From Escherichia phage FCWL1: a DNA stretch of 49,336 bases. The notes below the pieces were generated by a model that worked only from the letters and a program-made list of their open reading frames with translations, searched no databases and had not been told where the DNA came from. Each line of letters opens with the position of its first letter. The stretch's first letter is position 1. Location of the stretch: the sequence record PP558327; one strand, given 5' to 3'. Positions 894 through 49,336 of this stretch are shown here, one piece after another. The translations under genes were made by a program, and so were the position numbers.

Positions 894-941
894 GTGATTT
901 GGCATAATTACCTCATCGAAACGAGATTGAGGAAAAACAAA

Positions 942-2187: not shown

Positions 2188-2214
2188 AACCCCATCGACA
2201 ACGAACGAGGACGA

Positions 2215-2258
2215 TAGCCACGAATTGCTAAAACGTCGATGGGGTGATTTGATATAGT
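2215..2258 (+). promoter_or_regulatory. promoter cassette (TAGCCA-CGAAT-TGCTA, hairpin, TATAGT), second of tandem pair
   Basis: Same architecture as 2145-2187; conserved leader CATCGACAACGAAGAGAG then ATG 2291. Confidence 0.5.
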
Positions 2259-2290
2259 TACCTCATCGACAACGAAGAGAGAAAATCTAA

Positions 2291-6532: not shown

Positions 6533-6742
6533 ATGACGGTATCAACTGATAAGTTTTTCACTTGCACTAAAACTTCTGAAGTATTCGAACTGGTTCATAC
6601 TGATAATGGTGATTTCATGCATGACGGTTGCGACGTTTTCATTGAAGTGAAAGAAAGCGACTATGACGACGGAGTTTATTACAGCCCGGCAGTTAACACG
6701 CAGTTTTTTACCCCGATCGAGGAAGATGGAGAAGAGGCATGA
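6533..6742 (+). CDS. hypothetical acidic protein (69 aa)
   Basis: ORF abutting kinase stop. Confidence 0.4.
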   Translation: MTVSTDKFFTCTKTSEVFELVHTDNGDFMHDGCDVFIEVKESDYDDGVYYSPAVNTQFFTPIEEDGEEA

Positions 6743-7312: not shown

Positions 7313-7515
7313 TGGCTAATTTACCGAAGAAAGGAGATCAGGTTCGATGCATCACTTCACGTAATGGCGATGCTTTCTCAGCTGGGTGCTTGTATGACGT
7401 TGAAAAAGTCAGTAAAGCAAAGAGGCTCGTATATGTGTACGGCGACGATGGAAACCTGCATGAGATTAATTACCCGCAGGATATGACTAAGGGTCAATTT
7501 GAAATTAATGATTGA
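7312..7515 (+). CDS. small protein of the dispersed KxxC...Y(G)DDG repeat-domain family
   Basis: VRCITSRNGDAFSAGCLYDV...YVYGDDGNLH matches pattern seen at 4167, 41137 and 45012. Confidence 0.45.
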   Translation: MANLPKKGDQVRCITSRNGDAFSAGCLYDVEKVSKAKRLVYVYGDDGNLHEINYPQDMTKGQFEIND

Positions 7516-7677
7516 CCTACGTCCCTGAGCGGTGATAGTATTAATCCCGTAGACAAACTAGGCGCAATGAAGCGCAACGCGTGAGACGATTCTCACACTT
7601 CCAGCTAACAAGCTCGGTTGCATAGTGGTTAAGCAACGCCGCAGACCCGTAAGCGGCAACAATTCAAGAGGATTGCA

Positions 7678-7842
7678 TGATGCAAAACACCAAAGACGAA
7701 TCAGTAAAAATTGAAATTAAAGTAACTCGCAACGGTGAAACCACTCGTTATAAAAAACGATTAAATCCGGGAGAGGCTGTTATTGGTCGAATTGCTGGCG
7801 TTATGATTAAGGCGCAGGAAGATGAAGCGATTCAAGGTTAAA
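7678..7842 (+). CDS. possible small protein (54 aa)
   Basis: ATG preceded by AAGAGGATTGC RBS; below track length threshold. Confidence 0.3.
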
Positions 7843-8008
7843 TTAATTATTCGAAAGATGGGGATGTTTTGCCAGTCGTGCAAACAATCTTTCGAAACAG
7901 AATTATCTGCAACCAGTCAGGCAGAAGCCATCACGAAAGCAAAAAAACTTTCCGGCGCTAACCTTGACACTCACAAAATAAATATTGAATTAATCAAGGA
8001 GATTTAAC

Positions 8009-8236
8009 ATGACAATTTTTTTATTGATTATCGCTGGTGTCATTATTTTTGGTGCTGGTTTGTTTGCTGGCTTCGCACTTGTGGCGGCAGCAATTGCGAT
8101 GGACGCGAAGGATAAAACTGGTGTATGGCTGACCTACTCACCTAAGAAGGACCAATGGGAGATGACTGGCGACCTTGCTCACTGCTACTCTAAAGCTCAG
8201 ACCCACCCTAAAGGAATTAAGCGACTATTGTCGTGA
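8009..8236 (+). CDS. small membrane protein (75 aa)
   Basis: N-terminal TM helix IFLLIIAGVIIFGAGLFAGFALVAAAIA; RBS AAGGAG. Confidence 0.45.
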   Translation: MTIFLLIIAGVIIFGAGLFAGFALVAAAIAMDAKDKTGVWLTYSPKKDQWEMTGDLAHCYSKAQTHPKGIKRLLS

Positions 8237-8246
8237 TAAACACTAA

Positions 8247-8267
8247 CCCGCTTCGGCGGGTTTTTTT
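8247..8267 (+). terminator. intrinsic terminator (CCCGC-TTCG-GCGGG + T7)
   Basis: GC stem with UUCG tetraloop followed by T-tract. Confidence 0.6.
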
Positions 8268-8287
8268 ATGCCTGCAATATGGTAAAA

Positions 8288-8302
8288 TAGCACTAAATGT
8301 TA
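8288..8302. promoter_or_regulatory. palindrome TAGCA-CTAAA-TGTTA immediately upstream of terminase small subunit RBS
   Basis: Operator-like palindrome between terminator and RBS. Confidence 0.4.
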
Positions 8303-8320
8303 AACAAAGAGGATGGATTT

Positions 8321-8845
8321 ATGAGTGAACATAAAAACGCTCCCGTTGTTCAGGGAGGTAATTTCAAAGAGCTATACAAGAAAAAGTTCGGCACTGTTCT
8401 TGCTAAGAATCGGGCAATGACGCCTGAGCAACTATTCGATCTGTCAGTTAAGTATTTCGAATGGGCTGAAGACAATGCGATCAAGGCTTCTGAGTCTGCC
8501 AGCTTTCAGGGTGGCGTTTATGAATCGCTAGTTCATAAGCCGCGCGTCTTCACCTGGACCGGATACCGACTATTCATCGGTGCAAGCGAGGCCGCAATCA
8601 TTAAGTGGAAGCGAGAGGAAGAATACAGTGAGGTTATGGAGTTTGTGGAATCGGTAATCAACGAGCAAAAATTCCAGCTTGCCGCCAACGGTGTTATTAA
8701 CGCCTCATTTATCGGTAAGGATCTCGGAATCGACAAGCCAGCCTCAATCAATATCGAAAACTCGTCAGCTTCCGCATCGACCGCTGTCGCCACTACTGAG
8801 GACGCAATGAAAGAGGCTGTAAACAGTATTCTTGACATGCTTTAA
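8321..8845 (+). CDS. terminase small subunit
   Basis: 174-aa protein directly upstream of terminase large subunit; RBS AAAGAGG; helical N-terminal region typical of small terminases. Confidence 0.55.
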   Translation: MSEHKNAPVVQGGNFKELYKKKFGTVLAKNRAMTPEQLFDLSVKYFEWAEDNAIKASESASFQGGVYESLVHKPRVFTWTGYRLFIGASEAAIIKWKREEEYSEVMEFVESVINEQKFQLAANGVINASFIGKDLGIDKPASINIENSSASASTAVATTEDAMKEAVNSILDML

Positions 8846-10470: not shown

Positions 10471-10494
10471 GGCTGTCAATTGACGGCCTTTTTT
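10471..10494 (+). terminator. hairpin + T-tract between terminase and portal
   Basis: GGCTGTCAATTGACGGCC hairpin followed by TTTTTT. Confidence 0.45.
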
Positions 10495-10506
10495 ATTGGA
10501 GGAAAC

Positions 10507-11790
10507 ATGAAAATTGTTAAACATGATGGATATAACGATATCTTTAACGGCGGCGCGGACGGTTCACCAAAGCCATTTTTTATGTCAGACGCATCATATC
10601 ACGTAGGATCTTTCTATAACGATAACGCAACAGCGAAGCGAATTGTAGATGTGATCCCGGAAGAAATGGTGACGGCTGGATTTAAAATTTCAGGCGTTAA
10701 GGATGAAAAAGAGTTCAAATCTCTGTGGGATAGTTACAAAATTGATCCTAGCTTGGTTGATGCTCTTTGCTGGGCGCGCTTATACGGTGGGGCGGCTATT
10801 GTAGCAATCATTAATGACAACAGAATGCTAACCAGTCCAGTTAAGCCTGGGGCTAAACTTGAAGGTGTGCGTGTTTACGATAGGTTCGCAATTACAATCG
10901 AAAAAAGAGTAACCAATGCGCGATCGCCTCGCTATGGTGAGCCTGAGATCTATAAGGTGTCACCTGGTGACAATATTCAACCTTACTTAATCCACCACAC
11001 AAGAATTTTCATTGCTGATGGTGAGAGAGTTACCCCTCAGATGAGGAAGCAGAATCAGGGGTGGGGTGCTTCAGTTTTGAATAAGTCACTGATTGATGCA
11101 ATCTGCGACTACGACTATTGCGAATCACTTGCGACTCAGATCCTTCGGCGTAAGCAACAGGCGGTATGGAAGGTCAAAGGTCTTGCCGAAATGTGCGATG
11201 ATGACGATGCTCAGTATGCGGCGCGTCTGCGACTTGCTCAGGTTGATGATAACTCCGGCGTAGGCCGCGCGATCGGTATCGATGCTGAGACGGAAGAATA
11301 CGATGTTCTAAACTCTGATATCAGCGGAGTACCTGAGTTCTTATCAAGCAAGATGGATCGTATTGTTTCCCTTTCCGGGATTCATGAGATTATCATCAAA
11401 AATAAGAACGTAGGCGGCGTATCAGCGAGCCAAAACACGGCGCTTGAGACTTTCTATAAGTTGGTAGATCGTAAGCGTGAGGAAGATTACAGGCCGCTTC
11501 TTGAGTTCTTGCTGCCGTTCATTGTTGACGAGCAAGAGTGGTCGATCGAGTTCGAGCCTTTATCTGTTCCGAGCAAGAAAGAGGAATCAGAGATCACGAA
11601 GAATAACGTTGAGTCGGTTACGAAAGCTATCACTGAGCAAATCATCGATCTGGAAGAGGCTCGCGATACGTTGCGCTCTATCGCCCCTGAGTTTAAGCTA
11701 AAGGACGGTAATAACATCAACATTCGCGAACCGGAAGAGCCAACCGAACCGGAGCCGGGATTAGGGGAGAAGTTAGAAGATGAAAATTAA
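10507..11790 (+). CDS. portal protein
   Basis: 427 aa, immediately downstream of terminase; acidic C-terminus; RBS GGAGGA. Confidence 0.8.
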   Translation: MKIVKHDGYNDIFNGGADGSPKPFFMSDASYHVGSFYNDNATAKRIVDVIPEEMVTAGFKISGVKDEKEFKSLWDSYKIDPSLVDALCWARLYGGAAIVAIINDNRMLTSPVKPGAKLEGVRVYDRFAITIEKRVTNARSPRYGEPEIYKVSPGDNIQPYLIHHTRIFIADGERVTPQMRKQNQGWGASVLNKSLIDAICDYDYCESLATQILRRKQQAVWKVKGLAEMCDDDDAQYAARLRLAQVDDNSGVGRAIGIDAETEEYDVLNSDISGVPEFLSSKMDRIVSLSGIHEIIIKNKNVGGVSASQNTALETFYKLVDRKREEDYRPLLEFLLPFIVDEQEWSIEFEPLSVPSKKEESEITKNNVESVTKAITEQIIDLEEARDTLRSIAPEFKLKDGNNINIREPEEPTEPEPGLGEKLEDEN

Positions 11791-14206: not shown

Positions 14207-14974
14207 ATGGCTTACGAAAATTTGTTCTTGCGCCCCGCGTGTCCGGGAAATATTTCTGATACTTCAACCTACAATATTGATGGAGCTTGTGTGGCTCAAG
14301 GTGACATTGGGTTCGGCTCAGCGGTTCAGGTTGTAGGCATCGTTGACGGTGTAAAAGTTGTGGCGGCGCTTCCTGATGGTGGAACTCCTTACGGTATCGC
14401 TTTCCGTTCCCAATATGAACACCTGAGCGGTAAAATCCTTGACGGTGAAGTGTGCAACGTCGTTTCTCACGGTCGCGTATGGACTCTTACTTCTCTTGGT
14501 GAGGCTCCCAGCTTGTTCTCAAAGTTACAGTTTGGGTCTGGTGGAGTTGTTACTGGTGGATCTGGTTCCGCAGGTTGGACATTTGCGGGTGGCTTTGTTA
14601 AGCATGAAGATGGCTACATCATTGAGGTTCAGGTGAAACAAAATGCTTTCATCGCTCCACCGCCACCGCCCCCTGTCGTTCTTGTTGAATCTGCTACAAT
14701 CGCCACTGACAAGGAAAGCCCTCAACCAAACAATGTTACGATCCAGTGTGTAGCTAATGCTCTTCCGGATAATGCAACCGATAAGACTGGTAAATGGTCA
14801 ATCGACGCTACCAATATCGCCACTGTCGATCCGGACTCAGGTCTTGTAACTCCTGTTGGTGGAGAGGTAGTCGGTGATTTCAATATTACCTGGACGGCTA
14901 ACGATGCCAGCAAGACGACGGCAACTATTGCTTATCGCGTAGAAGCAGTGCCAACGCCAGAGGTTGATGCATAA
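14207..14974 (+). CDS. capsid decoration-like protein (paralog B) with poly-Pro linker and C-terminal Ig-like domain
   Basis: N-terminal homology to 13668 product; APPPPPPVVL linker; C-terminal beta-rich domain resembling bacterial Ig-like (Big_2-type) folds. Confidence 0.45.
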   Translation: MAYENLFLRPACPGNISDTSTYNIDGACVAQGDIGFGSAVQVVGIVDGVKVVAALPDGGTPYGIAFRSQYEHLSGKILDGEVCNVVSHGRVWTLTSLGEAPSLFSKLQFGSGGVVTGGSGSAGWTFAGGFVKHEDGYIIEVQVKQNAFIAPPPPPPVVLVESATIATDKESPQPNNVTIQCVANALPDNATDKTGKWSIDATNIATVDPDSGLVTPVGGEVVGDFNITWTANDASKTTATIAYRVEAVPTPEVDA

Positions 14975-15065: not shown

Positions 15066-16025
15066 ATGACTACTAAAAAATTTGATGAAGCAGATAAAAG
15101 CAATGTTGAAATGTATCTGATCCAGGCTGGCGTAAAACAGGATGCAGCCGCAACGATGGGTATCTGGACCGCTCAGGAACTACACCGCATCAAGAGTCAG
15201 TCCTATGAAGAAGACTACCCGGTCGGCTCCGCTCTACGAGTATTCCCGGTTACAACCGAACTCTCTCCGACCGACAAGACGTTTGAGTACATGACCTTTG
15301 ATAAGGTTGGTACTGCTCAGATTATCGCTGACTATACCGATGACCTGCCTCTGGTTGATGCACTTGGTACTTCTGAATTTGGTAAGGTGTTCCGTTTGGG
15401 TAACGCGTATCTGATCTCAATCGACGAAATCAAAGCAGGTCAGGCAACTGGTCGCCCACTGTCAACCCGTAAGGCGAGCGCGTGCCAGTTGGCGCATGAT
15501 CAGCTTGTTAACCGCCTGGTGTTCAAAGGTTCCGCACCGCACAAGATTGTGTCCGTGTTTAACCATCCGAACATCACTAAAATTACCTCCGGTAAGTGGA
15601 TTGATGCATCTACTATGAAGCCGGAAACTGCGGAAGCTGAGCTAACTCAAGCGATCGAAACCATCGAGACGATTACTCGGGGTCAGCACCGCGCAACCAA
15701 CATCCTGATCCCGCCTTCCATGCGTAAGGTTTTGGCGATTCGTATGCCTGAGACAACCATGTCTTATCTGGACTATTTTAAGTCTCAGAACTCCGGTATC
15801 GAAATCGACTCTATCGCAGAGCTTGAGGATATTGACGGCGCAGGCACCAAAGGCGTACTGGTGTACGAAAAGAATCCGATGAACATGTCCATCGAGATCC
15901 CGGAAGCATTTAATATGCTGCCAGCACAACCGAAAGACTTGCACTTTAAAGTGCCTTGCACTTCTAAGTGTACTGGTCTTACAATTTATCGCCCGATGAC
16001 TATTGTCTTAATCACTGGCGTGTAA
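15066..16025 (+). CDS. major capsid protein
   Basis: 319 aa; position after scaffold/decoration genes; followed by a strong terminator. Confidence 0.75.
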   Translation: MTTKKFDEADKSNVEMYLIQAGVKQDAAATMGIWTAQELHRIKSQSYEEDYPVGSALRVFPVTTELSPTDKTFEYMTFDKVGTAQIIADYTDDLPLVDALGTSEFGKVFRLGNAYLISIDEIKAGQATGRPLSTRKASACQLAHDQLVNRLVFKGSAPHKIVSVFNHPNITKITSGKWIDASTMKPETAEAELTQAIETIETITRGQHRATNILIPPSMRKVLAIRMPETTMSYLDYFKSQNSGIEIDSIAELEDIDGAGTKGVLVYEKNPMNMSIEIPEAFNMLPAQPKDLHFKVPCTSKCTGLTIYRPMTIVLITGV

Positions 16026-24963: not shown

Positions 24964-27900
24964 ATGATTCAAAAAGTGATAAGTGGATCTAAAGGCGGCT
25001 CGCCTAAGCCTCATAATCCAGTTGAGATGGAAGACAATCTAATCTCAATCAACAAAATCAAGATCCTGTTAGCTGTATCTGATGGTGAAATTGACGAAAC
25101 ATTCAGCCTGAAGCAGTTGATGTTTAACTCAGTCCCGGTGCAAAACGAGGATGGATCGTTCAACTTCGAAGGGGTAAAGGCTGAGTTCAGGCCGGGAACT
25201 CAGACGCAGGAATACATCAAGGGCATGGAGGATAGTTCCAGCGAGGTAACTGTAAATCGTGAGGTTACTACCGATAACCCATACACGATCTCAGTGACCA
25301 ATAAAACACTATCGGCAATACGCATCAAAATGTTCATGCCTCGCGGCGTACGAATTGAAAGTAACGGTGATAAAAATGGCGTAAGAGTTGAGTATGAGGT
25401 GCAACAAGCTGTTGATGGCGGTTCGTTTGAGACTGTTCTTACTGACGTAATTGAAGGCAAAACAATGTCAGGTTACGACAGAAGTCGACGTGTAAACCTG
25501 CCTAGCTTTAACAACCAGGTAATATTCAGAGTTGTTCGAAAGACTCCAGACTCTAACGACTCTAACGTTGTTGATGCGATCCAGGTAAAGAGCTATGCCG
25601 AGGTGATTGATGCCAAATTCCGTTACCCTCTGACAGGTCTTCTTTTCGTCGAGTTCGACTCGAAGATGTTCCCAAACCAGTTACCTACGATCTCAATTCG
25701 TAAGCGCTGGAAGATTGTAAGCGTTCCGTCGAACTACGACCCAGAATCGCGAACATACAACGGCAATTGGGATGGCACTTTCAAAAAAGCATGGACGAAC
25801 AATCCGGCGTGGGTTCTTTATGACCTGATGATTAATCAGCGTTACGGCTTGGATCAGAAAGAGCTTGGTATCGCTGTCGATAAATGGGCGCTCTACGAGG
25901 CTGCGCAATATTGCGATCAGATGGTTCCTGATGGGAAGGGCGGGACGGAACCTCGATACCTTTGCGACGTGATAATCCAGTCTCAGACTGACGCTTACAA
26001 GGTTATTCGAGATATTTGCTCAATCTTTCGAGGTATGAGCTTTTGGAATGGCGAAAGCATTTCGGTAATCATCGATAGGCCGCGTGAGCCTGCGTACATC
26101 TTCACTAACGACAACGTGGTTAATGGTGACTTCTCCTACACGTTTGCAAGCGAAAAGAGCATGTACACGACGTGTAATGTGATGTTTGACGACGAGCAAA
26201 ACATGTATCAGCAGGACGTTGAGCCAGTATTCGATCGTGAGGCTACTCTACGGTTCGGGAACAACGTAACGAGCATTACAGCGATCGGCTGCACACGTCG
26301 AAGCGAGGCCAACCGACGCGGGAGATGGATTCTGAAAACTAACCTCCGCAGCACTACGGTAAACTTCGCTACCGGACTTGAGGGTATGATTCCGACAATC
26401 GGAGATGTTGTGGCAATAGCTGATAACTTCTGGTCAAGTAACTTGACGATGAACCTATCAGGGCGCTTGCTCGAAGTATCCGGTAGTCAGATTTTCTTGC
26501 CGCTCCGGGTGGATGCACGCGCGGGTGACTTTATTATCGTAAATAAGCCAGATGGCAAGCCCGTGAAGCGCACAATATCAAGTGTTAGTGCGGATGGTAA
26601 GACTATAGAGGTTAACATTGGCTTTGGCTTTCCTGTGAAGCCTAACACGGTATTCGCTATCGACCGCACCGACATTGCGTTACAGCAGTACGTCGTGACA
26701 AAAATCGATAAGGGCGATGATGATGAGGAATTTACCTACAAAATAACGGCGGTGGAGTACGATCCTAACAAGTACGATGAGATTGATTACGGAGTTAATA
26801 TCGACGACCGACCGACGAGCATCGTTGAACCAGATCAGATCCCTAGACCGGAAAACGTGCAAGTGTCCTCAGAGTCACGAATCGTCCAGGGGATGAGCGT
26901 AGAAACGATGATTGTTAGCTGGGATAAAGTGCCGTACGCAGTTTTCTATGACGTCCAGTGGCGAAAGGATAACGGCAACTGGCAAAATGTACCGCAGACA
27001 GCAAACAAAGAGGTATACGTTGAAGGTATTTACGCTGGCAACTATCAGGTTCGCGTTCGCTCCGTAGCTGGTTCCGGTACGACTTCAGGATGGTCAAATG
27101 TCGTAGCTGCGACGCTGACGGGCAAACAAGGTGAGCCGGGTGGACCGATTAACCTTACAGCTACGGATGATGTTGTTTTTGGTATCCGTACAAAATGGGG
27201 GTTCTCTGATGGTTCTGGAGATACGGCCTATACAGAGTTGCAACAGTCACCAGATGGAACAGTGGATAACGCAAGTTTGCTTTCTTTGATTCCGTACCCG
27301 CAGCATGAGTATTATCACTCACCGATGCCTGGAGGGAATATTGTTTGGTATCGTGTAAGGACGGTTGATAGGATCGGTAACGTGTCTCAGTGGACTGATT
27401 TTGTCAGAGGTATGGCATCAACAAACGTTGACGATATCATTGGGGAGATTTCTGTCGATATCGAAAACTCGCCGGGTTACGAGTGGCTTGTTGATAACGC
27501 AACCGACAACGCGGCGCAGAACGCAGCTAACGCAGAGGCAGCAATAGAAAACGCGCTCGCCAATGACAAAGACGCGATCTACATGAAGAAGGAGAACGGA
27601 AAACGAAAAGCTGAGTACACGAAATCACTGAAACTTATTGCTGATGAGACGCAGGCGCGAGTGACGGCGATCGAGCAATTGAAGGCAAGTTTTGGCGATC
27701 AGATTAGCGCTAGCAACAGCGAATTGCGTGAAGTTATCGCAACTGAGACTGGAGCGCTATCGCGTGAAATTGACCAACTCAGGGCAGAGATTGGTGATGA
27801 TATCCAGGCAAGTTTGACCGATATCAGAGAGGCTATAGCAAACGAGACTGAGGCGAGAACGCAAGCTGACTTGTCGTTAAGCGCGAGGCTTGGGAATAAT

Positions 27901-28383
27901 GAGGCAGCACTTTCTCAAAAACTTGATTCGTGGAGCAATGCAGATTCGACTGGTGCAATGTACGGCGTCAAGCTCGGTCTGAAGTATAACGGCCAAGAAT
28001 ACAGTGCAGGCATGGCTATGTCTCTGATTGGTTCCGGAGCTGCGGTTAAGGCGCAGATTTTGTTTGAGGCATCACGATTTGCCATCATGAATGGAATGAA
28101 TGGTCAGACTCAGTACCCATTCGTTGTTGAGAATGGCCAGGTTATTTTAAGTAGCGCGATTATCAAGAACGGATTCATCACGAATGCGATGATTGGTAAT
28201 GTTATTCAATCGAATAACTATGTCGTTAACAAGGCTGGCTGGATACTTGACAAGGGTGGAACATTAGAAAACTACGGAAGTGACGCTGAGGGTGCAATGA
28301 AGCAAACTAATACCACAATATCTGTTAGGGATGCGAGTGGTCGCCTGAGGGTTCAGATTGGCAGGTTGACTGGTTCATGGTAA
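24964..28383 (+). CDS. central tail fibre / host specificity protein (lambda J-like)
   Basis: 1139 aa; conserved J-family segment NPAWVLYDLMINQRYGLDQ...; fibronectin-like repeats; coiled-coil C-terminal region. Confidence 0.85.
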   Translation: MIQKVISGSKGGSPKPHNPVEMEDNLISINKIKILLAVSDGEIDETFSLKQLMFNSVPVQNEDGSFNFEGVKAEFRPGTQTQEYIKGMEDSSSEVTVNREVTTDNPYTISVTNKTLSAIRIKMFMPRGVRIESNGDKNGVRVEYEVQQAVDGGSFETVLTDVIEGKTMSGYDRSRRVNLPSFNNQVIFRVVRKTPDSNDSNVVDAIQVKSYAEVIDAKFRYPLTGLLFVEFDSKMFPNQLPTISIRKRWKIVSVPSNYDPESRTYNGNWDGTFKKAWTNNPAWVLYDLMINQRYGLDQKELGIAVDKWALYEAAQYCDQMVPDGKGGTEPRYLCDVIIQSQTDAYKVIRDICSIFRGMSFWNGESISVIIDRPREPAYIFTNDNVVNGDFSYTFASEKSMYTTCNVMFDDEQNMYQQDVEPVFDREATLRFGNNVTSITAIGCTRRSEANRRGRWILKTNLRSTTVNFATGLEGMIPTIGDVVAIADNFWSSNLTMNLSGRLLEVSGSQIFLPLRVDARAGDFIIVNKPDGKPVKRTISSVSADGKTIEVNIGFGFPVKPNTVFAIDRTDIALQQYVVTKIDKGDDDEEFTYKITAVEYDPNKYDEIDYGVNIDDRPTSIVEPDQIPRPENVQVSSESRIVQGMSVETMIVSWDKVPYAVFYDVQWRKDNGNWQNVPQTANKEVYVEGIYAGNYQVRVRSVAGSGTTSGWSNVVAATLTGKQGEPGGPINLTATDDVVFGIRTKWGFSDGSGDTAYTELQQSPDGTVDNASLLSLIPYPQHEYYHSPMPGGNIVWYRVRTVDRIGNVSQWTDFVRGMASTNVDDIIGEISVDIENSPGYEWLVDNATDNAAQNAANAEAAIENALANDKDAIYMKKENGKRKAEYTKSLKLIADETQARVTAIEQLKASFGDQISASNSELREVIATETGALSREIDQLRAEIGDDIQASLTDIREAIANETEARTQADLSLSARLGNNEAALSQKLDSWSNADSTGAMYGVKLGLKYNGQEYSAGMAMSLIGSGAAVKAQILFEASRFAIMNGMNGQTQYPFVVENGQVILSSAIIKNGFITNAMIGNVIQSNNYVVNKAGWILDKGGTLENYGSDAEGAMKQTNTTISVRDASGRLRVQIGRLTGSW

Positions 28384-29446: not shown

Positions 29447-29672
29447 ACATCGAGCAATCGTGAGACTTGAAGTTATTCTCTGATACGTAATGGAATGAGA
29501 ATGGATACCCAGCACGTAACAGCATCTCATCACCGCGCATCTTTGATCCAAAAACGGAAACCGAGTACTCTGCGTCACCTGATTCATAAATCGCAGTACA
29601 AGTGCGCTCAGGCATCGATGAGCAACCAGTCAGGATGAATGCCGCAGCAATAATGGTGATTAATTTTTTCAT
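29445..29672 (-). CDS. outer-membrane lipoprotein, Cor/Llp-like superinfection-exclusion candidate
   Basis: Only minus-strand gene; N-terminus MKKLITIIAAAFILTGCSS is a lipoprotein signal with lipobox LTGC; GAGGA SD; own sigma70-like promoter; adjacent to receptor-binding tail genes. Confidence 0.5.
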   Translation of the reverse strand: MKKLITIIAAAFILTGCSSMPERTCTAIYESGDAEYSVSVFGSKMRGDEMLLRAGYPFSFHYVSENNFKSHDCSM

Positions 29673-32033: not shown

Positions 32034-32447
32034 ATGCATATTATCACTGGAGAGATCCGAAAAGAACCTAAGATTCTTGAACGTAACGGCGGGAATACTT
32101 ATATAATCGAACTGGCAGAGAGCTACAAGCCTCGAGATGGAGATCGAGAATACACCAACTACACATTCTTTTTTAGCGACGGTGGAAAGCCTGGCCTTGC
32201 TGACTGGTATCGTGAAGCATTCCAGGTTGGTCGCGTCGTATCAGTATCATGCGAGACGTTGAAGATCTCATCCCGTGAACACAATGGAACGGTTTACAAT
32301 TCATTGCAGGCCGCTGACTTCCCGAAGTTGGTATTTAGTCAACGAGGACAAAGCAATCAACAACGAGCACCGCAGCAACAACAGCGAACGCAATCACAGC
32401 CACAGCCAAATCCTCAATCAACTTTCGATGATGATATCCCGTTCTAA
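32034..32447 (+). CDS. ssb: single-stranded DNA-binding protein
   Basis: OB-fold-sized N-domain, Gln/Pro-rich linker, C-terminal acidic tip DDDIPF identical to bacterial SSB tails. Confidence 0.8.
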   Translation: MHIITGEIRKEPKILERNGGNTYIIELAESYKPRDGDREYTNYTFFFSDGGKPGLADWYREAFQVGRVVSVSCETLKISSREHNGTVYNSLQAADFPKLVFSQRGQSNQQRAPQQQQRTQSQPQPNPQSTFDDDIPF

Positions 32448-32453
32448 CAAAAA

Positions 32454-32474
32454 TCCCCGCAATGCGGGGATTTT
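32454..32474 (+). terminator. intrinsic terminator after ssb
   Basis: TCCCCGC-AAT-GCGGGGA hairpin + T4. Confidence 0.5.
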
Positions 32475-32475
32475 A

Positions 32476-33981
32476 ATGGCTTTATATCGACGCGGTACTG
32501 CATCAATGGATGCAGACGGAACGGTTCACGGAACCGATACAAAATGGAAAGACCAGCTTGCTCTTATTCGCGTAGGTGCAACTATCGTGTTCCTTGAGCA
32601 ACCAATTAAGCTAGCTGTGATTAGCGATATCGTTAGTGATACAGAATTAAAGGCTATCTCTACTGATGGTCAGACTGCCGATGACGGTAAGTATGTGATC
32701 CTACTTAATGACTCTCTAACCGTTAACGGATTAGCTCAAAACGTCGCCGAGACTCTTCGATACTATCAAAGCAAAGAGACTGAGATTGCGGCAGCTATAG
32801 ACCTGATAAATCAGCTTGATATGAATAAACTTGAGCAAATAGTTGCTGATGTGAATCAGGCGAAATCTGATTCTCAAGCTGCGCAAAATCAGGCTGAATT
32901 AGCGCGTGACGATGCGGTAAGCTCAAAAGATGCGGCTGCGGTAAGTGCTCAAGAAGCAAAAGACGCAGCTAACAGCATCAATGCTGAAAATCTTTTAACT
33001 AAGGATGGCAATTTAGCTGGTCTTGAGGATAAAAAAGAGTCAAGAAAAAATATTGGGTTAGGTGAAAATGATGCTGTTAACTTTCTTGCTATTAACACCA
33101 CTGGCGCTATAGGTGCAGGAAGGAATTCATGGGACGGTTCTAGCTGGGGTAGTCAGTCCATATTGTCATCATTGATGATTATGTCACCTGATGGAATATC
33201 TACGCCAGGTATTTACGTCAGAAAAGAACGTAGCGATAATGGTTATGCTGGGGCTTTATTATTTTATGAGGGGGCAAACTACTTCGAGACTAACAATAGA
33301 TTCAGAGCTAATCAGTTTTTATGCCAGAAAACATCTATGGGTTACAACCAGATGTGGTCTGCTTCATGCTTCCAGGGTAATGCTTACACCGCTGATAGTG
33401 GTGCTGAAAACTATCAATCACTTATTGCTGGATCGTGTGGCACCAGAGGTCAGGGATACGTTGGCGGCGTAGCATTTGGCATGATGACTACGGGTAATCC
33501 TGAATGGCCCAGGGCACAAATATCAGTAGGCACTCAAGATAGGGATGGAGCAGGCAATATTGGTCTGCAAATGCATTTCAGGTTTATGGCTTCAGGGCAA
33601 ATATCTTACGCTGGACCGCAAGGGGCTGGAAGTTTCCAACAGGTTCCGGCATCTGACAGAAATATAAAGCACGGCATAAAGGATGATGAATCAAGCATTG
33701 CATACAACAACATAAAATCAATGAGATTTAGGAACTTTATATTTAACGATGATGAGCAAGAAAGGGTAAGGAGAGGTGTTATAGCTCAGGAGATAGAAGA
33801 GATCGACAATCTATATGTTAAGAGAAGGGTGTATGAGAGCCACGAGCTAAACGGGCCAAAAGTTGAAAGGCTTGAGCTTGATACAACTCCTTTATTGCTT
33901 GACACTATGAGAGCTTTACAGGATACAATAAAGAAAGTTGAAGAGTTACAAGAAGAGATAAAAATGTTGAAGTCCAAATGA
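32476..33981 (+). CDS. side tail fibre with C-terminal intramolecular chaperone (peptidase S74-like) domain
   Basis: C-terminal ASDRNIKHGIKD...IAQEIEEI... coiled-coil matches auto-cleaving chaperone domains of tail fibres/endosialidases; start placed after terminator (track ORF 32275 over-extended across ssb). Confidence 0.65.
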   Translation: MALYRRGTASMDADGTVHGTDTKWKDQLALIRVGATIVFLEQPIKLAVISDIVSDTELKAISTDGQTADDGKYVILLNDSLTVNGLAQNVAETLRYYQSKETEIAAAIDLINQLDMNKLEQIVADVNQAKSDSQAAQNQAELARDDAVSSKDAAAVSAQEAKDAANSINAENLLTKDGNLAGLEDKKESRKNIGLGENDAVNFLAINTTGAIGAGRNSWDGSSWGSQSILSSLMIMSPDGISTPGIYVRKERSDNGYAGALLFYEGANYFETNNRFRANQFLCQKTSMGYNQMWSASCFQGNAYTADSGAENYQSLIAGSCGTRGQGYVGGVAFGMMTTGNPEWPRAQISVGTQDRDGAGNIGLQMHFRFMASGQISYAGPQGAGSFQQVPASDRNIKHGIKDDESSIAYNNIKSMRFRNFIFNDDEQERVRRGVIAQEIEEIDNLYVKRRVYESHELNGPKVERLELDTTPLLLDTMRALQDTIKKVEELQEEIKMLKSK

Positions 33982-34002
33982 AATATAAACTCCTTAAGTA
34001 AA

Positions 34003-34017
34003 TAGCACGAATTGCTA
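34003..34017. promoter_or_regulatory. palindrome TAGCA-CGAAT-TGCTA upstream of primase gene
   Basis: Perfect operator-like palindrome just downstream of tail fibre stop. Confidence 0.45.
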
Positions 34018-34081
34018 AACACAGATTTTATCATCGCGCCACGAGTCTTGCAACGGGCAATAAAAAACCGCCCGAAGGCGG

Positions 34082-35002
34082 ATGATGTTTCAGAAAGAGG
34101 ACGTTTTGCCGTACATGAAGGGGTTATGGCGCGAGGCTTTCCAATCAATCTGCGGATTGCCGAATGATGTTTTTAATAAGAAACACCAACCTTGCCCTAA
34201 CTGCGGGGGTAAGGACCGCTTTCGCTGGACTGATAACCTTAACACTCCGGGCGACGGCGGTGCGATCTGCAACTCATGCGGTAACGACTCTGGAGTCGGT
34301 TGGTTGATTAAATTAACTGGTATGCCGTACAGCGAATGTATAAATATCCTGGGAAGATTTCTCGGCAAGGTTCCGCAGGAATACATTGTCAAGGTCAACA
34401 AAAAAGCGCGAAGAACTCCGGTAGCTGGCGTCAATGTTATGATGGCAGAACACGAGGCAGTGATGAAAGTTATGGAGCGCACAGAGAAGCGCATAAACAC
34501 ACCTCTAAGCATGTTTGAGTCGCTACCTACTGAATCATTCGACGTTGGCGTAAAACGTCGAGAGGATGGCGGCGAGAGTGTATTTCACACCATACCATGT
34601 CAACTTGTACACGAGGACGGTCTTGATGAAGAGTTTTGCAATATTTTGATTATTGATGAGGAGGGTAGGGAGTCATTTTATGCAAAGAAATACACAAGTT
34701 GCTCGGTTGCCGTGACTGGTAAAACTGAAAAAGCGATCTACTTATGCCTTAATTGGATTGATGCTCAGCATATTGCATTTCACACAAAGCAAGAGGTATG
34801 GGCCTGCTTCACTCCTGAAAATCTAGAAATGGTTGCGTACAGATACAAGGGAGATCGGGAGGTAAGGGTGGCGTGCGAACCATCTGATAAAGAAACTTTA
34901 TACATGGCAGACGACAGACAATTAAAAATAATCATCCCGAATCAGGGAGGATACCGCTCAGGAATGCAAGCTAAGTTATTCTCAGCAAGTGATCTACTAT
35001 AA
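34082..35002 (+). CDS. primase-type zinc-ribbon protein (putative DNA primase)
   Basis: CPNCGGKDRFRW...GDGGAICNSCG Zn-ribbon typical of phage primase N-termini; start codon uncertain (hairpin directly upstream, no SD). Confidence 0.5.
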   Translation: MMFQKEDVLPYMKGLWREAFQSICGLPNDVFNKKHQPCPNCGGKDRFRWTDNLNTPGDGGAICNSCGNDSGVGWLIKLTGMPYSECINILGRFLGKVPQEYIVKVNKKARRTPVAGVNVMMAEHEAVMKVMERTEKRINTPLSMFESLPTESFDVGVKRREDGGESVFHTIPCQLVHEDGLDEEFCNILIIDEEGRESFYAKKYTSCSVAVTGKTEKAIYLCLNWIDAQHIAFHTKQEVWACFTPENLEMVAYRYKGDREVRVACEPSDKETLYMADDRQLKIIIPNQGGYRSGMQAKLFSASDLL

Positions 35003-35051
35003 AAATTCTTCGTTCACTTCCAGATCTCCAAAATAAAAAACGCGTAGAAGG

Positions 35052-35531
35052 ATGTTAACCCGCTACGCGTCGTTTGTTATGAGTATTCAACGTATCGCAG
35101 AGTCAACTGGTGAAATCGATAAACGTCACATCAATGGTAACAACGGAACACGACGCGGTAAAGATAAAAAGCCTCGACAGCGCTGCGGCTTCTATATTCA
35201 TAAAGAAGAAACACGCGCCGGATTGCGAGCGCGACTTGATGCGCTTATCGAATATTATGGTGGCCCTGCGGCCTGCGCAAAAGCTCTAAAGGTTAGCAAT
35301 CAGACGGTGCAAGGCTGGAAAGAACGCAACATGATTTCGTGGCAAGGTGCTGAAGCTGCGCATCGTGCTTACCGACGACAGGGGTGTAAAGGATTTCGTG
35401 CCGCATGGTTGCGATTCGACCTGAAGTTTGACGGTAACGGCAAGTGCCTTGAGAAGCGATGCAAGAACAAGAAATTTATGCGCGTCGTGAAGAAGGAAGA
35501 TATCGGGACGACCAATAGCATTTTTAGTTAA
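35052..35531 (+). CDS. HTH DNA-binding protein (Cro/YdaS-like), candidate regulator
   Basis: Segment YGGPAACAKALKVSNQTVQGWKERNMISWQGAEAA matches Cro/YdaS-type helix-turn-helix pattern; start uncertain. Confidence 0.4.
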   Translation: MLTRYASFVMSIQRIAESTGEIDKRHINGNNGTRRGKDKKPRQRCGFYIHKEETRAGLRARLDALIEYYGGPAACAKALKVSNQTVQGWKERNMISWQGAEAAHRAYRRQGCKGFRAAWLRFDLKFDGNGKCLEKRCKNKKFMRVVKKEDIGTTNSIFS

Positions 35532-39921: not shown

Positions 39922-41073
39922 ATGTCACAAGCTAAAATCACTACCGAACAACTTGTCGAAGAGCGCATGAACGGCCTAACACTTCGCGAGATCGCGGAAA
40001 AGTACGGTATGCACATTCGAACTGTTGAAGCTCGCCACGCAAAGTTGGCAAAAGAAGGTCACTTCCACGGTAACGAGCATGTTGCTAAGAACGTACCGGA
40101 AGGATTCATGGTAAAAGGCACATCAACGATGATTCGCGGCGATGGGACCGAGGTGGTGCGCTGGGTTAAGACCGATCAGGACCGTGAGAAGATTGCAGCA
40201 ATGATGGAAGCGGCGCGTATTGCATTCTGTGAAGATCTGCCGCGAGCAAAGCCAACTGAGCTACTAACCTCACAAGGGCTTACTACAGCGATGGGTAAGC
40301 TGGCACTCTATCCGGTATTCGATCTTCATATTGGCGCGCTTGCTCATAAGCATGAATGCGGAGAGAACTATTCTACCGATGTAGCGGAAAAAGTGCTGAG
40401 TGACTTCTTTAATTACGCGATCGATATTGCTCCGAACGCAGAGAAGGCTGTTCTGTTAATCGGCGGTGACTTCCTGCACTCTGACGGACTTGATGCAGTT
40501 ACTCCGGCAAGCGGTCACGTTCTTGATCAGGATTCACGATATGCTAAATTGGTGCATGTAGCGATTCGATCGGTGCGACGAGCTATAGACAAAATGCTGA
40601 CGAAACACAAAGAGGTCGAAGTTCAGGTTATCGAAGGAAACCACGACCAGGCCGGGATGATTTGGTTACGCGCAGCAATGGCAGCATACTATGAAGACGA
40701 GCCGCGAGTATTCGTTGACGTCAGTCCTATGATTCTGCATAAGACTCGTTGGGGAAATACCTTGTTGGGATACACTCACGGGCACACTATGAAAAAGGCA
40801 GACACGCGACTTGCAGCGATGGCAGCAGATTTCCGATCGGATTTCGGCGAGAGCAAGTATGTGTATACTCATAGCGGGCACTGGCATCACCAGACAATCA
40901 CTGAGCACTCGCTAGGTATTGATGAAGTACACGGTCAGTTAGGCGCGAAAGATGCATACGCAGCACGCGGAGGGTGGCGCTCATATCGCCAGGCGGCGGT
41001 AATTGTTTACGATAAGCAGTTTGGTGAAATCGGTCGATTCATCTATCGTCCAGAAATGACAGGATCGCACTAA
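39922..41073 (+). CDS. N-terminal HTH fused to calcineurin-like metallophosphoesterase
   Basis: HTH-like LTLREIAEKYGMHIRTVEARHAKL; phosphoesterase motifs DLHIG, GGDFLHSD, GNHD, GHTM, GHWHH. Confidence 0.6.
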   Translation: MSQAKITTEQLVEERMNGLTLREIAEKYGMHIRTVEARHAKLAKEGHFHGNEHVAKNVPEGFMVKGTSTMIRGDGTEVVRWVKTDQDREKIAAMMEAARIAFCEDLPRAKPTELLTSQGLTTAMGKLALYPVFDLHIGALAHKHECGENYSTDVAEKVLSDFFNYAIDIAPNAEKAVLLIGGDFLHSDGLDAVTPASGHVLDQDSRYAKLVHVAIRSVRRAIDKMLTKHKEVEVQVIEGNHDQAGMIWLRAAMAAYYEDEPRVFVDVSPMILHKTRWGNTLLGYTHGHTMKKADTRLAAMAADFRSDFGESKYVYTHSGHWHHQTITEHSLGIDEVHGQLGAKDAYAARGGWRSYRQAAVIVYDKQFGEIGRFIYRPEMTGSH

Positions 41074-41107
41074 TTGATAAAAACGCCCGAAGGGATTCGG
41101 GTATAGT
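41065..41107 (+). promoter_or_regulatory. promoter cassette (degenerate palindrome, hairpin, TATAGT)
   Basis: 22-bp spacer with CCCGAAGGGATTCGGG hairpin; leader CATCGAAAACAAAGAGGAT. Confidence 0.45.
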
Positions 41108-41136
41108 AACCACATCGAAAACAAAGAGGATATATC

Positions 41137-41313
41137 ATGAAGCGAGTTAAGTGCATCCGAAATGACTCCAAAACACTTCCATTCCGCGTAAATCAGATCT
41201 ATAGTGTTGGTTATGATTTCGGTGGGGGATTATTTGAGATTTACGACGGGCGAGGTTCAGCAATTCAGGCTCCTCTGAACGGTAGCTATCTGGAATTTAT
41301 TGCGATAGATTAA
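41137..41313 (+). CDS. small protein (58 aa) of the dispersed KxxC repeat-domain family
   Basis: MKRVKCIRNDSKTLPFRVNQIYSVGYDFGGGLFEIYDGRG; below track threshold; preceded by promoter cassette and RBS. Confidence 0.4.
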   Translation: MKRVKCIRNDSKTLPFRVNQIYSVGYDFGGGLFEIYDGRGSAIQAPLNGSYLEFIAID

Positions 41314-41335
41314 CAATATCATTCATCACCTTACA

Positions 41336-41365
41336 GGCTGGCATGATTTACATGCTAGCCTTTTT
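41336..41365 (+). terminator. intrinsic terminator
   Basis: About 10-bp stem GGCTGGCATG/CATGCTAGCC + T5. Confidence 0.55.
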
Positions 41366-41431
41366 GCGTTGTATCAAGTAAATTTGAAGGTTAAAATCGA
41401 CTCACTTGTTCAAAAAATATATGGTGAGATT

Positions 41432-41647
41432 ATGAAAGAATTTTTAACAGCAGCTACGTCAAGCACGGGCGGTGCTTCATTAGTCGGGGCCGCTACCGGG
41501 CAACTTTATATTGCTGGCGCTACATTCATTTGCTTTCTGCTTTTTGGTGCCTGGGGTGCATACTGGAAGTATCGTGATAGTAAGGCAATTCAGGAAGCGT
41601 TAAACGATGGCGATCTAAATAAGGCGCTTAAGATCAGGGGGAGATAA
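41432..41647 (+). CDS. holin (pinholin-like, two weakly hydrophobic TMDs)
   Basis: 71 aa; Gly/Ala/Ser-rich TMD1 ([15 protein letters not shown]) and hydrophobic TMD2 ([19 protein letters not shown]); immediately upstream of endolysin with overlapping stop/start. Confidence 0.55.
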
Positions 41648-42135
41648 TGAGCTTAAAAAATAACGTTATAGGCGCATCGATCGGGGCTGCTTTGACGTTG
41701 ACACCCACCCTACTGGAACGAATCGAAGGTATAGAATACGAGGTGTATTACGATATAGCCGGAGTCCCTACCGTATGCAGCGGAATAACCGGGCCGGACG
41801 TCATACCTGGTAAGAAATACACTAAGCGAGAATGCGATGCATTGCTGATAAAACATATCGGCGTCGCTCAGCGATACGTTGACAAAAAGGTGAATGTTGA
41901 TATTCCGGTAACGATGCGCGCGTCACTGTACAGCTTCACTTTCAACGTTGGAACTGGCGCGTTCGGATCTTCTACAATGCTTAAGCTAATAAATCAGAGT
42001 AAGCACAAGGAAGCGTGCAATCAGTTATGGCGATGGGTATACTACTACAACCCAAAAACCAAAAAGCGAGAAGTGTCTAGAGGACTCAAGAACCGACGCG
42101 CTGAAGAATACGCGTATTGCGTTAAGGAATTATGA
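41647..42135 (+). CDS. SAR endolysin (T4-lysozyme-like muramidase, GH24)
   Basis: N-terminal Gly/Ala-rich signal-anchor-release segment [19 protein letters not shown]; catalytic E-8x-D-5x-T pattern ([16 protein letters not shown]). Confidence 0.75.
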
Positions 42136-42536
42136 TGAAACTGAAGAAAACGTGCATTGCGATTACAGTGGCTGTTGGTGTTATTTCTCTATCCGGTTGC
42201 TCTACGGCATCTGCCCTGAGCGGTTTAATCGGATCTAAACCGGAAGTTACAGCACAAATCGGAGAGGAGAACACAAAGCAATTAGCAGGAGTAACCGCAA
42301 AATCCGAAGATAAGCGAGATGTTAAAGTTGAGAAGTCCAATGTAGGAAAGATTGACTCTTCCTTGAAGAAGTCAATTGAAGTGTCAACCATTAAGGCTAA
42401 CACGGTTAACGCTGAAAGCATCACAATAACAAAGCCAGAAAACTGGTACGATGCAATTGTAGGATGGACTCTCGTTTTCATTGGCCTATTGCTGGTTTAT
42501 TTTTCAATTCGTAAGGACGAAAAAAAAGGAGGCTAA
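42132..42536 (+). CDS. unimolecular spanin (OM lipoprotein signal + C-terminal IM transmembrane helix)
   Basis: Lipobox LSGC near N-terminus and C-terminal [21 protein letters not shown], as in the phage T1-type u-spanin; ATGA overlap with endolysin. Confidence 0.7.
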
Positions 42537-47329: not shown

Positions 47330-47357
47330 TTACTGGCCTGTTAAACCGATCGAGTTT

Positions 47358-49194: not shown

Positions 49195-49235
49195 GTTGAT
49201 GAGGTGAATCATACCCGATCGGCAGGACTGATGTG

Positions 49236-49250
49236 TGGCAAAAAATGCTA
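49236..49250. promoter_or_regulatory. palindrome-like site TGGCA-AAAAA-TGCTA near window end
   Basis: Matches dispersed operator-like motif; may belong to the control region continuing at window start if genome is circularly permuted. Confidence 0.3.
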
Positions 49251-49336
49251 TTCCAATAGTTGCTCATTATTCCACCAGCAATGGAATATCTGGAATAATT
49301 GCGATCCCGATTGATCTAGAATGATGAAATGTGATT

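What the first reader, a model, noticed from the sequence alone, without database searches (positions are those of the whole stretch)
32275..33981. Side tail fibre with auto-cleaving intramolecular chaperone domain sits inside the replication module; track ORF is over-extended
The C-terminal about 120 aa (…ASDRNIKHGIKD…IAQEIEEI…coiled coil) match the peptidase S74-type intramolecular chaperone of tail fibres and endosialidases, so this is a receptor-binding fibre separated by about 3 kb from the rest of the tail genes. The annotated ORF start at 32275 runs through the ssb coding region and a terminator. The real start is the ATG at 32476 just after that terminator. This misplaced, diversifying fibre gene is a likely host-range determinant.
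Basis: partly seen in the sequence, partly recalled or inferred. Interest (0 to 1): 0.4.

Follow-up and report, generated by a model that had tools for sequence, protein, structure and literature searches.

The report
Known T1-type side tail fibre, artificially flipped
This is the ordinary side tail fibre gene of a T1-like coliphage, with a self-cleaving folding domain, sitting where that phage family always keeps it; its odd layout exists only because leftward genes in this sequence were turned round in place.

Summary
ORF 32275-33981 exists, and its last 109 residues match Pfam Peptidase_S74 (E 3.3e-8, above the curated cut-off). The Ser393/Lys398 pair is invariant. The true start is the ATG at 32476.

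The protein is the lateral tail fibre of a Tunavirus. It is 100% identical to the phage FCWL1 protein and 99.8% identical to that of phiD2-2. It has a conserved N-terminal anchor, a coiled-coil shaft, a swappable distal tip and a self-cleaving chaperone domain.

The gene is not misplaced. Published work shows that Drexlerviridae keep their lateral fibre locus between the recombination genes and the primase/helicase genes. Fibres with a coiled coil and a C-terminal chaperone domain are already described in this family.

The layout [quoted passage not shown] is an artefact of this sequence. Every annotated leftward CDS of the parent genome is reverse-complemented in place here, in 14 blocks with CDS-exact ends, while the intergenic DNA is left untouched. 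In all natural relatives the fibre lies on the opposite strand and converges on ssb. There it has its own promoter and Shine-Dalgarno site, which now sit downstream at 33982-34081 on the minus strand.

None of the 29 window junctions tested occurs in any relative. All 30 natural junctions do. Already known; low interest.

The parts
32476..33981 (+). Lateral tail fibre CDS (501 aa plus stop). It is 100% identical to WYM30990.1 of Escherichia phage FCWL1. The block is an exact reverse complement, in place, of phiD2-2 record positions 40778-42283.
   Evidence: (PHROG 1980 tail fiber, E 2.5e-97)
32476..32805 (+). N-terminal anchor domain (aa 1-110). It is conserved across Drexlerviridae fibres and tailspikes and presumably attaches the fibre to the tail.
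   Evidence: E 1e-43 to N-termini of depolymerases 7vyv/7lzj; most of 1174 records match only aa 1-~130; 95-100% identity in Tunavirus alleles whose tips are unrelated
32806..33075 (+). Alanine/glutamine-rich coiled-coil shaft (about aa 111-200). Its length varies: 594-aa alleles carry a 93-aa insertion after residue 142.
   Evidence: (helices 83-167)
33076..33651 (+). Distal receptor-binding region (aa 201-392), beta-rich. It is exchanged as a module together with the chaperone domain. The ligand is not identified.
   Evidence: 13-25% identity in other Tunavirus alleles; 51-59% in fibres of ~44-45 kb phages with a different anchor
33652..33978 (+). S74-type intramolecular chaperone domain (aa 393-501). 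The Ser393 codon is 33652-33654 and the Lys398 codon is 33667-33669. The predicted self-cleavage site is Ala392|Ser393.
32275..32475 (+). Spurious 5' extension of the mechanical ORF. It runs through the ssb 3' end (different frame) and the hairpin. It exists only because of the flipped layout.
32450..32474 (.). Hairpin with an 11-bp stem, an A-run on one side and a T-run on the other. In natural relatives it lies between the stop codons of the convergent ssb and fibre genes, so it is probably a bidirectional terminator.
   Evidence: Not flagged by the simple terminator scan.
33982..34081 (-). The fibre's natural upstream region, left unflipped and so now stranded downstream of the CDS. On the minus strand it holds the primase terminator (34081..34068 plus a T-run), a promoter-like site TTGCAA-17-TAAAAT with a TG extension (34053..34025), and the Shine-Dalgarno site TAAGGAG (33996..33990), which lies 8 nt from the ATG in nature.
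32034..32447 (+). ssb-like gene (137 aa). It is the natural convergent neighbour of the fibre gene.
   Evidence: (PHROG 44, E 2.8e-23)
34082..35002 (+). Primase zinc-ribbon gene, also reverse-complemented in place. In nature it lies upstream of the fibre on the same (leftward) strand.

Best explanation
Window 32476-33981 encodes the lateral (side) tail fibre of a T1-like phage (Tunavirus, Drexlerviridae; essentially phage FCWL1/phiD2-2).

Inferred mechanism: three chains assemble through the C-terminal S74-type intramolecular chaperone (aa 393-501). This domain templates folding of the distal tip and then cuts itself off at Ala392|Ser393 using the Ser393/Lys398 pair. That leaves a mature fibre subunit of about 41.8 kDa. 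The conserved N-terminal anchor (aa 1-110) fixes the fibre to the tail. The coiled-coil shaft projects a swappable tip (aa 201-392) that makes the first, reversible contact with a surface glycan (LPS or O-antigen) and so tunes host range.

The gene sits at the standard lateral-fibre locus of the family. The features that looked odd are the same strand as ssb, an ATG abutting a terminator with no ribosome-binding site, and an ORF running back into ssb. These are artefacts. In this window every annotated leftward CDS of the parent genome has been reverse-complemented in place, and the intergenic DNA was left as it was.

In nature the fibre is a leftward gene with its own promoter and Shine-Dalgarno site. 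It is terminated at the hairpin it shares with the convergent ssb gene.
For: Shown:
- Pfam S74 match above the curated cut-off.
- Ser393 and Lys398 are invariant in 41 fibres, including those with unrelated tips. Lys is invariant and Ser is conserved in at least 90% of 23 distant chaperone domains.
- A profile of that domain hits solved chaperone domains: 8hqz_d L-shaped tail fibre at 5.6e-39, the 7dc3 MyRF auto-processing domain at 1.3e-10, and the 3gud_A released neck-appendage domain, whose first residue is the Ser aligned to Ser393.
- Foldseek top hits are 7dc3 and the endosialidase chaperone 3gw6.
- PHROG tail-fibre family match at 2.5e-97.
- The N-terminal anchor matches Drexlerviridae fibres and depolymerases.
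- Modular mosaic: the anchor, and the tip plus chaperone, vary independently.
- Published locus position and architecture.

Flip artefact:
- The window is about 99.9% identical to phiD2-2, except for 14 inverted blocks whose ends coincide with the ends of the 17 annotated minus-strand CDS. The intergenic pieces stay collinear.
- The junction at 32475|32476 is absent from all 37 matching phage records, which break exactly there. It is also absent from the viral, metagenome and genome collections. The natural junction is found in 5 viral contigs.
- 0 of 29 window junctions are spanned in relatives, against 30 of 30 natural junctions.
- No inverted repeats flank the block.
- The cor gene, on the window minus strand at 29672..29448 and unannotated in phiD2-2, was left unflipped.
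- The natural upstream region carries TAAGGAG 8 nt before the ATG and a promoter-like site.
Against: Self-cleavage, trimerisation, presence in the virion and the receptor are all inferred, not shown.

The monomer structure model is poor (mean pLDDT 51), so the fold of the tip is unknown.

The PDB holds near-identical capsid and tail-tip proteins of T1-like phages but no chain for this fibre.

The FCWL1 nucleotide record could not be inspected, because it is not in the searchable collections. I therefore cannot say whether the flips are in the deposited record or were introduced when the window was prepared.
Confidence: 0.9

Rival explanations
1. The fibre gene is unusually displaced into the replication module. 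It is read on the same strand as ssb from an ATG just past the ssb terminator, which would be a noteworthy arrangement.
For: In the window as given, the exonuclease, ERF, ssb, fibre and primase genes are all on the + strand, and the ATG abuts the hairpin.
Against: The position is the family norm. The orientation is found in no relative. There is no ribosome-binding site before the ATG in the window, while a perfect one sits on the opposite strand beyond the stop codon.
Confidence: 0.03
2. A natural invertible segment that switches host range by site-specific inversion of the fibre gene, in the manner of the Mu G or P1 C segments.
For: The fibre block is inverted relative to the closest relatives.
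Against: No inverted repeats lie at the block ends. No invertase gene is nearby. The whole CDS is inverted from ATG to stop, which separates it from its promoter and Shine-Dalgarno site. Thirteen other blocks across the genome are inverted in the same CDS-exact way, including the primase and many early genes.
Confidence: 0.01
3. A genuinely built, refactored T1-like genome in which all annotated genes were deliberately turned to one strand.
For: The edits are systematic and follow the annotation. Nothing in the sequence alone distinguishes a synthetic construct from an in-silico edit.
Against: Each flipped CDS loses its own ribosome-binding site and promoter. The original promoters now point antisense into the genes. 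Such a genome would be unlikely to be viable. No paper describing such a construct was found.
Confidence: 0.04
4. The protein is a tailspike depolymerase enzyme rather than a fibre.
For: The best PDB matches by sequence are Klebsiella phage depolymerases.
Against: The match covers only the shared anchor and the start of the coiled coil (aa 1 to about 130 are well aligned). No enzymatic or beta-helix Pfam domain is detected. At about 190 aa the distal region is too short for a beta-helix spike. The tip and chaperone resemble T5-type fibre tips.
Confidence: 0.03

Closest known systems
Lateral tail fibres of Drexlerviridae (T1-like phages), e.g. JMPW2_053, phiD2-2 GP69, Bas07 JakobBernoulli Gp36, Cronobacter phages CRES7/CRES9 gp28
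   Same: The locus is the same, between the recombination genes and the primase/helicase genes. The N-terminal anchor is the same. The architecture of coiled coil, tip and C-terminal chaperone domain is the same. Identity to phiD2-2, JMPW2, Eco_BIFF and the Sfin/Shfl1 alleles is 85-100%.
   Different: Nothing differs in the protein beyond allele-level variation: one residue (G322 here, D322 in phiD2-2) and a shaft 93 aa shorter than in the 594-aa alleles. Only the strand of the CDS in this window differs, and that is artificial.
Phage T5-type L-shaped tail fibre (pb1 / LtfA; PDB 8hqz chain d)
   Same: The C-terminal chaperone domain is homologous (E 3.7e-10 with the single sequence, 5.6e-39 with a profile). 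The Ser and Lys positions align. The shaft is alanine-rich.
   Different: The fibre here is much shorter (501 against 1076 aa), has a different anchor, and comes from a different phage family. Similarity in the tip is limited.
Endosialidase and GA-1 neck-appendage C-terminal intramolecular chaperone domains (PDB 3gw6, 3gud); MyRF auto-processing domain (7dc3)
   Same: The domain family (Peptidase S74) and the Ser...Lys motif are shared. The domain sits at the C-terminal end of a trimeric fibre or spike.
   Different: Sequence similarity is distant. The upstream passenger domain is a short fibre tip, not a sialidase or a beta-helix.
Klebsiella Webervirus capsule depolymerases (PDB 7lzj, 7vyv, 7vz3)
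   Same: The N-terminal anchor is homologous (about 60% identity over the first 100 aa or so).
   Different: Those proteins carry a large enzymatic domain in place of the small tip and chaperone domain found here.

Membership tests
Peptidase S74 / intramolecular chaperone auto-processing domain | Profile match above the curated family threshold | tested here: met
   PF13884, E 3.3e-8, 34.1 bits against a cut-off of 22, aa 393-443
Peptidase S74 / intramolecular chaperone auto-processing domain | Conserved serine at the cleavage site with a lysine five residues downstream (S-x4-K) | tested here: met
   SDRNIK, with Ser393 and Lys398. Both are invariant in 41 fibres. In 23 distant domains Lys is invariant and Ser is conserved in at least 90%. 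Ser393 aligns to residue 1 of the released domain 3gud_A.
Peptidase S74 / intramolecular chaperone auto-processing domain | Located at the extreme C-terminus of a fibre or spike protein, ending in a helical coiled coil | tested here: met
   The domain ends at the last residue. In nearly all of the 150 listed homologues the match lies at or near the C-terminal end. Helix 470-500 is modelled with pLDDT about 80.
Peptidase S74 / intramolecular chaperone auto-processing domain | Fold of the solved chaperone domains | tested here: inconclusive
   Foldseek top hits are 7dc3 (E 3e-4, TM 0.53-0.56 on the target) and 3gw6 (E 0.03). However, the model is a monomer of modest confidence.
Peptidase S74 / intramolecular chaperone auto-processing domain | Autoproteolytic release after trimer folding | not testable with these tools
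   This needs protein chemistry. The predicted products are 41.8 kDa and 13.0 kDa.
Drexlerviridae lateral tail fibre | Conserved N-terminal anchor shared by the family's fibres and spikes | tested here: met
Drexlerviridae lateral tail fibre | Locus between the recombination genes (exonuclease, Erf, SSB) and the primase/helicase genes | tested here: met
   described in PMC8594841
Drexlerviridae lateral tail fibre | Leftward orientation, convergent with ssb, with its own upstream promoter and Shine-Dalgarno site | tested here: not met
   Not met in the window (the CDS is on the ssb strand). It is met in phiD2-2, JMPW2, IME167, 5 IMG/VR contigs and all 37 matching records. The failure is due to the in-place flip and says nothing about the protein's membership.
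Drexlerviridae lateral tail fibre | Structural component of the virion | not testable with these tools
   No PDB chain exists for this fibre, although capsid and tail-tip structures of near-identical phages do.
Invertible tail-fibre segment (Mu G / P1 C type) | Inverted repeats at the segment ends and an adjacent serine invertase | tested here: not met
   No inverted repeats pair the two ends. The neighbours are ssb and primase.

The most novel reading that the evidence does not exclude
The one-strand layout is physically real. Under this reading the sequence is an engineered or otherwise rearranged T1-like phage genome. All annotated leftward genes, including the fibre, have been inverted in place, and the fibre would have to be expressed without its native promoter and ribosome-binding site.
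Probability: 0.03. Interest if true: 0.55.

Novelty: already known. Interest (0 to 1): 0.1.

Why it matters
As biology it adds little. Lateral fibres of T1-like phages with a coiled-coil shaft, a swappable tip and a self-cleaving C-terminal chaperone are already described, as is their fixed locus between the recombination and primase genes. They are already treated as host-range modules.

The practical point is a warning. Gene orientation, operon structure, start-site context and some gene-order features in this window do not reflect the natural phage. Any first-stage finding that relies on strand, on promoter/terminator/RBS context, or on ORF overlaps here should be discounted.

Tried and rejected
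- The word-indexed homologue search with only the C-terminal 152 aa gave just 3 near-identical fragments. It was replaced by the exhaustive HMMER search.
- The exact-sequence contig look-up for the FCWL1 protein found nothing. The FCWL1 genome record is not in the phage collection. I therefore could not check whether the deposited record carries the flips.
- The AlphaFold2 monomer with a 41-sequence alignment was poor (mean pLDDT 51). Only the chaperone domain was usable. No conclusion was drawn on the tip fold, and no further fold searches were run.
- The simple terminator scan did not flag the 32450-32474 hairpin on either strand. Folding shows that it is strong.
- A natural invertible segment was considered and rejected (and the genome-wide pattern).
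- A depolymerase function was considered and rejected, because the PDB depolymerase hits cover only the anchor.
- Literature searches for phiD2-2 and FCWL1 gave only passing mentions.

Full report
WHAT IS AT THE COORDINATES

The mechanical ORF 32275..33981 (+, GTG start, 568 aa) exists. Its first 201 nt overlap the 3' part of the preceding 137-aa gene (32034-32447) in another frame. That gene matches PHROG 44, single-strand DNA-binding protein, at E 2.8e-23. The same 201 nt also cross a perfect hairpin at 32450-32474, AAAATCCCCGCA/TGCGGGGATTTT. The hairpin folds at -17 kcal/mol with z -3.7 on the + strand, and at -16.5 kcal/mol with z -3.5 on the - strand. The simple terminator scan missed it.

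The in-frame ATG at 32476 gives a 501-aa protein. Pfam reports Peptidase_S74 at aa 393-443, with E 3.3e-8 and 34.1 bits against a cut-off of 22. PHROGs reports tail-fibre family 1980 at E 2.5e-97. The neighbours are a PDDEXK-like exonuclease, an ERF recombinase and the SSB upstream. A primase zinc-ribbon protein and a putative transcriptional regulator lie downstream. The last tail-module ORFs end at 28383 and 29423.

WHAT THE PROTEIN IS

The protein is 100% identical to WYM30990.1 of Escherichia phage FCWL1, whose contig length of 49,336 bp equals the window length. It is 99.8% identical to the tail fibre of phage phiD2-2, with one difference: G322 here and D322 there. The DNA is 92-97% identical to a set of Escherichia and Shigella Tunavirus phages, all annotated as tail fibre.

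Four modules can be told apart:

- Anchor (aa 1-110). It matches the N-termini of solved Klebsiella phage depolymerases 7vyv and 7lzj at E about 1e-43. It is the only part shared with most of the 1174 phage records that match by tblastn.
- Shaft (about aa 111-200). This is a coiled coil rich in alanine and glutamine, modelled as long helices. The 594-aa alleles have a 93-aa insertion after residue 142.
- Distal region (aa 201-392). It is beta-rich.
- Chaperone domain (aa 393-501).

The regional identities show modular exchange:

- Tunavirus alleles with a 95-99% identical anchor can have an unrelated tip (13-25%) and chaperone domain (22-45%).
- Fibres from phages of about 44-45 kb, for example phage jat, have a 30% identical anchor but a 51-59% identical tip and a 70-77% identical chaperone domain.
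- T5-like and 77-kb podophage records match only the C-terminal third.

This is the usual pattern for a receptor-binding fibre. It supports a host-range role by inference, not by experiment.

THE CHAPERONE DOMAIN

The motif SDRNIK places Ser393 and Lys398 five residues apart. Both are invariant in 41 full-length homologues, including those with unrelated tips. In 23 distant C-terminal domains taken from an exhaustive search of 1.84 billion proteins, Lys is invariant and Ser is conserved in at least 90%.

A profile built from these domains hits several solved structures:

- the T5-type L-shaped tail fibre 8hqz_d, at 5.6e-39;
- the MyRF auto-processing domain 7dc3, at 1.3e-10;
- the fibres 8jov and 6f45;
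- the released GA-1 neck-appendage chaperone 3gud_A, whose first residue is the Ser that aligns with Ser393.

From this alignment, and from the established Ser-Lys mechanism of this family (Schulz et al. 2010, cited), I infer cleavage at Ala392|Ser393. That would give a 41.8-kDa mature subunit and a 13.0-kDa released domain.

The AlphaFold2 monomer is poor overall (pLDDT 51) but reaches 70-85 in the chaperone domain. Its best Foldseek hits in the PDB are 7dc3 (E 3e-4) and the endosialidase chaperone 3gw6 (E 0.03). Cleavage itself cannot be tested here.

IS IT MISPLACED? NO.

Maffei et al. 2021 (PMC8594841) state that in Drexlerviridae the lateral tail fibre locus is flanked by conserved, syntenic recombination genes and primase/helicase genes. 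They add that only the 5' end of the main fibre gene is conserved.

The follow-up BASEL paper describes Drexlerviridae and Dhillonvirus fibres with N-terminal coiled coils, T5-like tips and C-terminal chaperone domains. Cho et al. 2025 show that two residues in such a Drexlerviridae fibre set host range. The annotated genomes of phiD2-2, JMPW2 and IME167 all show the same gene order.

THE UNEXPECTED PART: THE ORIENTATION IS ARTIFICIAL

The megablast hits covered only the fibre CDS and lay on the opposite strand to the ssb hits. A whole-genome comparison shows that the window is about 99.9% identical to phiD2-2 (OR861627.1). However, it contains 14 inverted blocks whose ends coincide with CDS ends. 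Together these blocks cover all 17 minus-strand CDS annotated in phiD2-2. Every intergenic piece between them stays in the original orientation. Around the finding the correspondence is:

- window 32476-33981 is the reverse complement of record 40778-42283;
- window 33982-34081 is record 42284-42383, forward;
- window 34082-35002 is the reverse complement of the primase CDS;
- window 35003-35078 is forward;
- window 35079-35531 is the reverse complement of the next CDS.

The fibre block spans ATG to stop of the 501-aa FCWL1-style gene call, not the 491-aa phiD2-2 call. As a result every ORF of at least 110 aa that corresponds to a gene annotated in phiD2-2 or IME167, or matched here by a family search, lies on the + strand.

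Several tests show that this layout is unique to the window:

- A 90-nt probe across 32475|32476 matches 37 phage records, and every match stops exactly at the junction.
- The junction sequence has no exact match in IMG/VR, JGI metagenomes or the GTDB genomes. The natural junction (hairpin followed by the reverse complement of the fibre stop) occurs in 5 IMG/VR contigs.
- Of 29 window breakpoints, none is spanned in phiD2-2, IME167, JMPW2 or those contigs. Of 30 natural phiD2-2 junctions, all are spanned by at least one relative.
- No inverted repeats flank the block.
- A cor superinfection-exclusion gene (75 aa, 92% identical to IME167 Cor) lies on the window minus strand at 29672..29448. It is not annotated in phiD2-2, and it was not flipped.

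The flips therefore follow an annotation table, not a biological process. I cannot tell whether they are in the deposited FCWL1 record or were introduced when the window was prepared, because that record is not available to the tools.

CONSEQUENCES FOR THE FINDING

In natural relatives the fibre is a leftward gene. Read in its own direction, it is preceded by four elements:

- the primase terminator (CCGCCTTCGGGCGG followed by T6);
- a promoter-like site, TTGCAA-17-TAAAAT with a TG extension;
- TAAGGAG, 8 nt before the ATG;
- an in-frame TAA, 15 nt upstream of the ATG.

The fibre gene ends at the hairpin, which it shares with the convergent ssb gene. The hairpin has an A-run on one side and a T-run on the other, so it is probably a bidirectional terminator.

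In the window these signals sit at 33982-34081 on the minus strand, downstream of the CDS and pointing antisense into it. The ATG at 32476 has no ribosome-binding site. The GTG-initiated overrun into ssb exists only because of the flip.

The reasoning "just after that terminator" describes an artefact.

VERDICT

This is a correctly recognised but ordinary and already described gene: the lateral tail fibre of a T1-like phage with an S74 chaperone domain, at its canonical locus. The apparent oddities of layout are not real features of the phage. Interest is low. The main value of the re-examination is the warning about the window's construction.

Noticed in passing
window 894-1127, 32476-33981, 34082-35002, 35079-35531, and ten blocks between 42549 and 48271: Fourteen blocks are reverse-complemented in place relative to phage phiD2-2. 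Their ends fall at CDS ends and together they cover all 17 annotated minus-strand CDS. The intergenic DNA is unchanged. Strand, operon and RBS context in these regions are therefore not natural.
   Followed up: yes
window 49195-49336 + 1-377, 378-893, 894-1127; vacated sites near 47330-47344, 48290/48291 and 48436/48437: Three CDS-sized units have been excised from their natural positions and placed consecutively after GP21. They are an unannotated 519-nt unit (phiD2-2 7490-8008), GP19 (8155-8670) and GP16 (6310-6543, flipped). None of these junctions occurs in phiD2-2 or IME167. The cause is unknown; it looks like a further edit or a record artefact.
   Followed up: partly
window 29672..29448 (minus strand): A cor superinfection-exclusion lipoprotein gene (75 aa, 92% identical to IME167 Cor) remains on the minus strand. 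It is unannotated in phiD2-2 and unflipped, and it is the one minus-strand gene I found that has a homologue elsewhere. Cor usually accompanies FhuA-using T1-like phages.
   Followed up: partly
window 39922-41073: A 383-aa ORF spans the origin of the phiD2-2 record and is unannotated there. IME167 annotates a same-sized (383-aa) hypothetical protein at the corresponding place.
   Followed up: no
window 33440: This is the only nucleotide difference from phiD2-2 within the fibre gene. It is non-synonymous (G322 here, D322 in phiD2-2) and lies in the distal receptor-binding region. phiD2-2 was isolated on an E. coli rfaD mutant.
   Followed up: no
window 32901-32903 (after fibre residue 142): The 594-aa alleles of Sfin, Shfl1 and phiL phages carry a 93-aa insertion in the coiled-coil shaft at this point, and JMPW2 has a 518-aa version. 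Shaft length therefore varies independently of the tip.
   Followed up: partly
window 2214-2294: About 80 nt here match phiD2-2 14759-14838 as well as lying next to sequence from 10482-10520. This may be a short repeated intergenic element or a further small rearrangement.
   Followed up: no
window 15066-16022 and 24964-28380: The major capsid protein and the J-like central fibre have near-identical solved structures in the PDB (9kmg, 9kmh, 9kzj; 9l9p_S). Virion structures of this or a sister phage therefore exist, but they include no lateral-fibre chain.
   Followed up: partly
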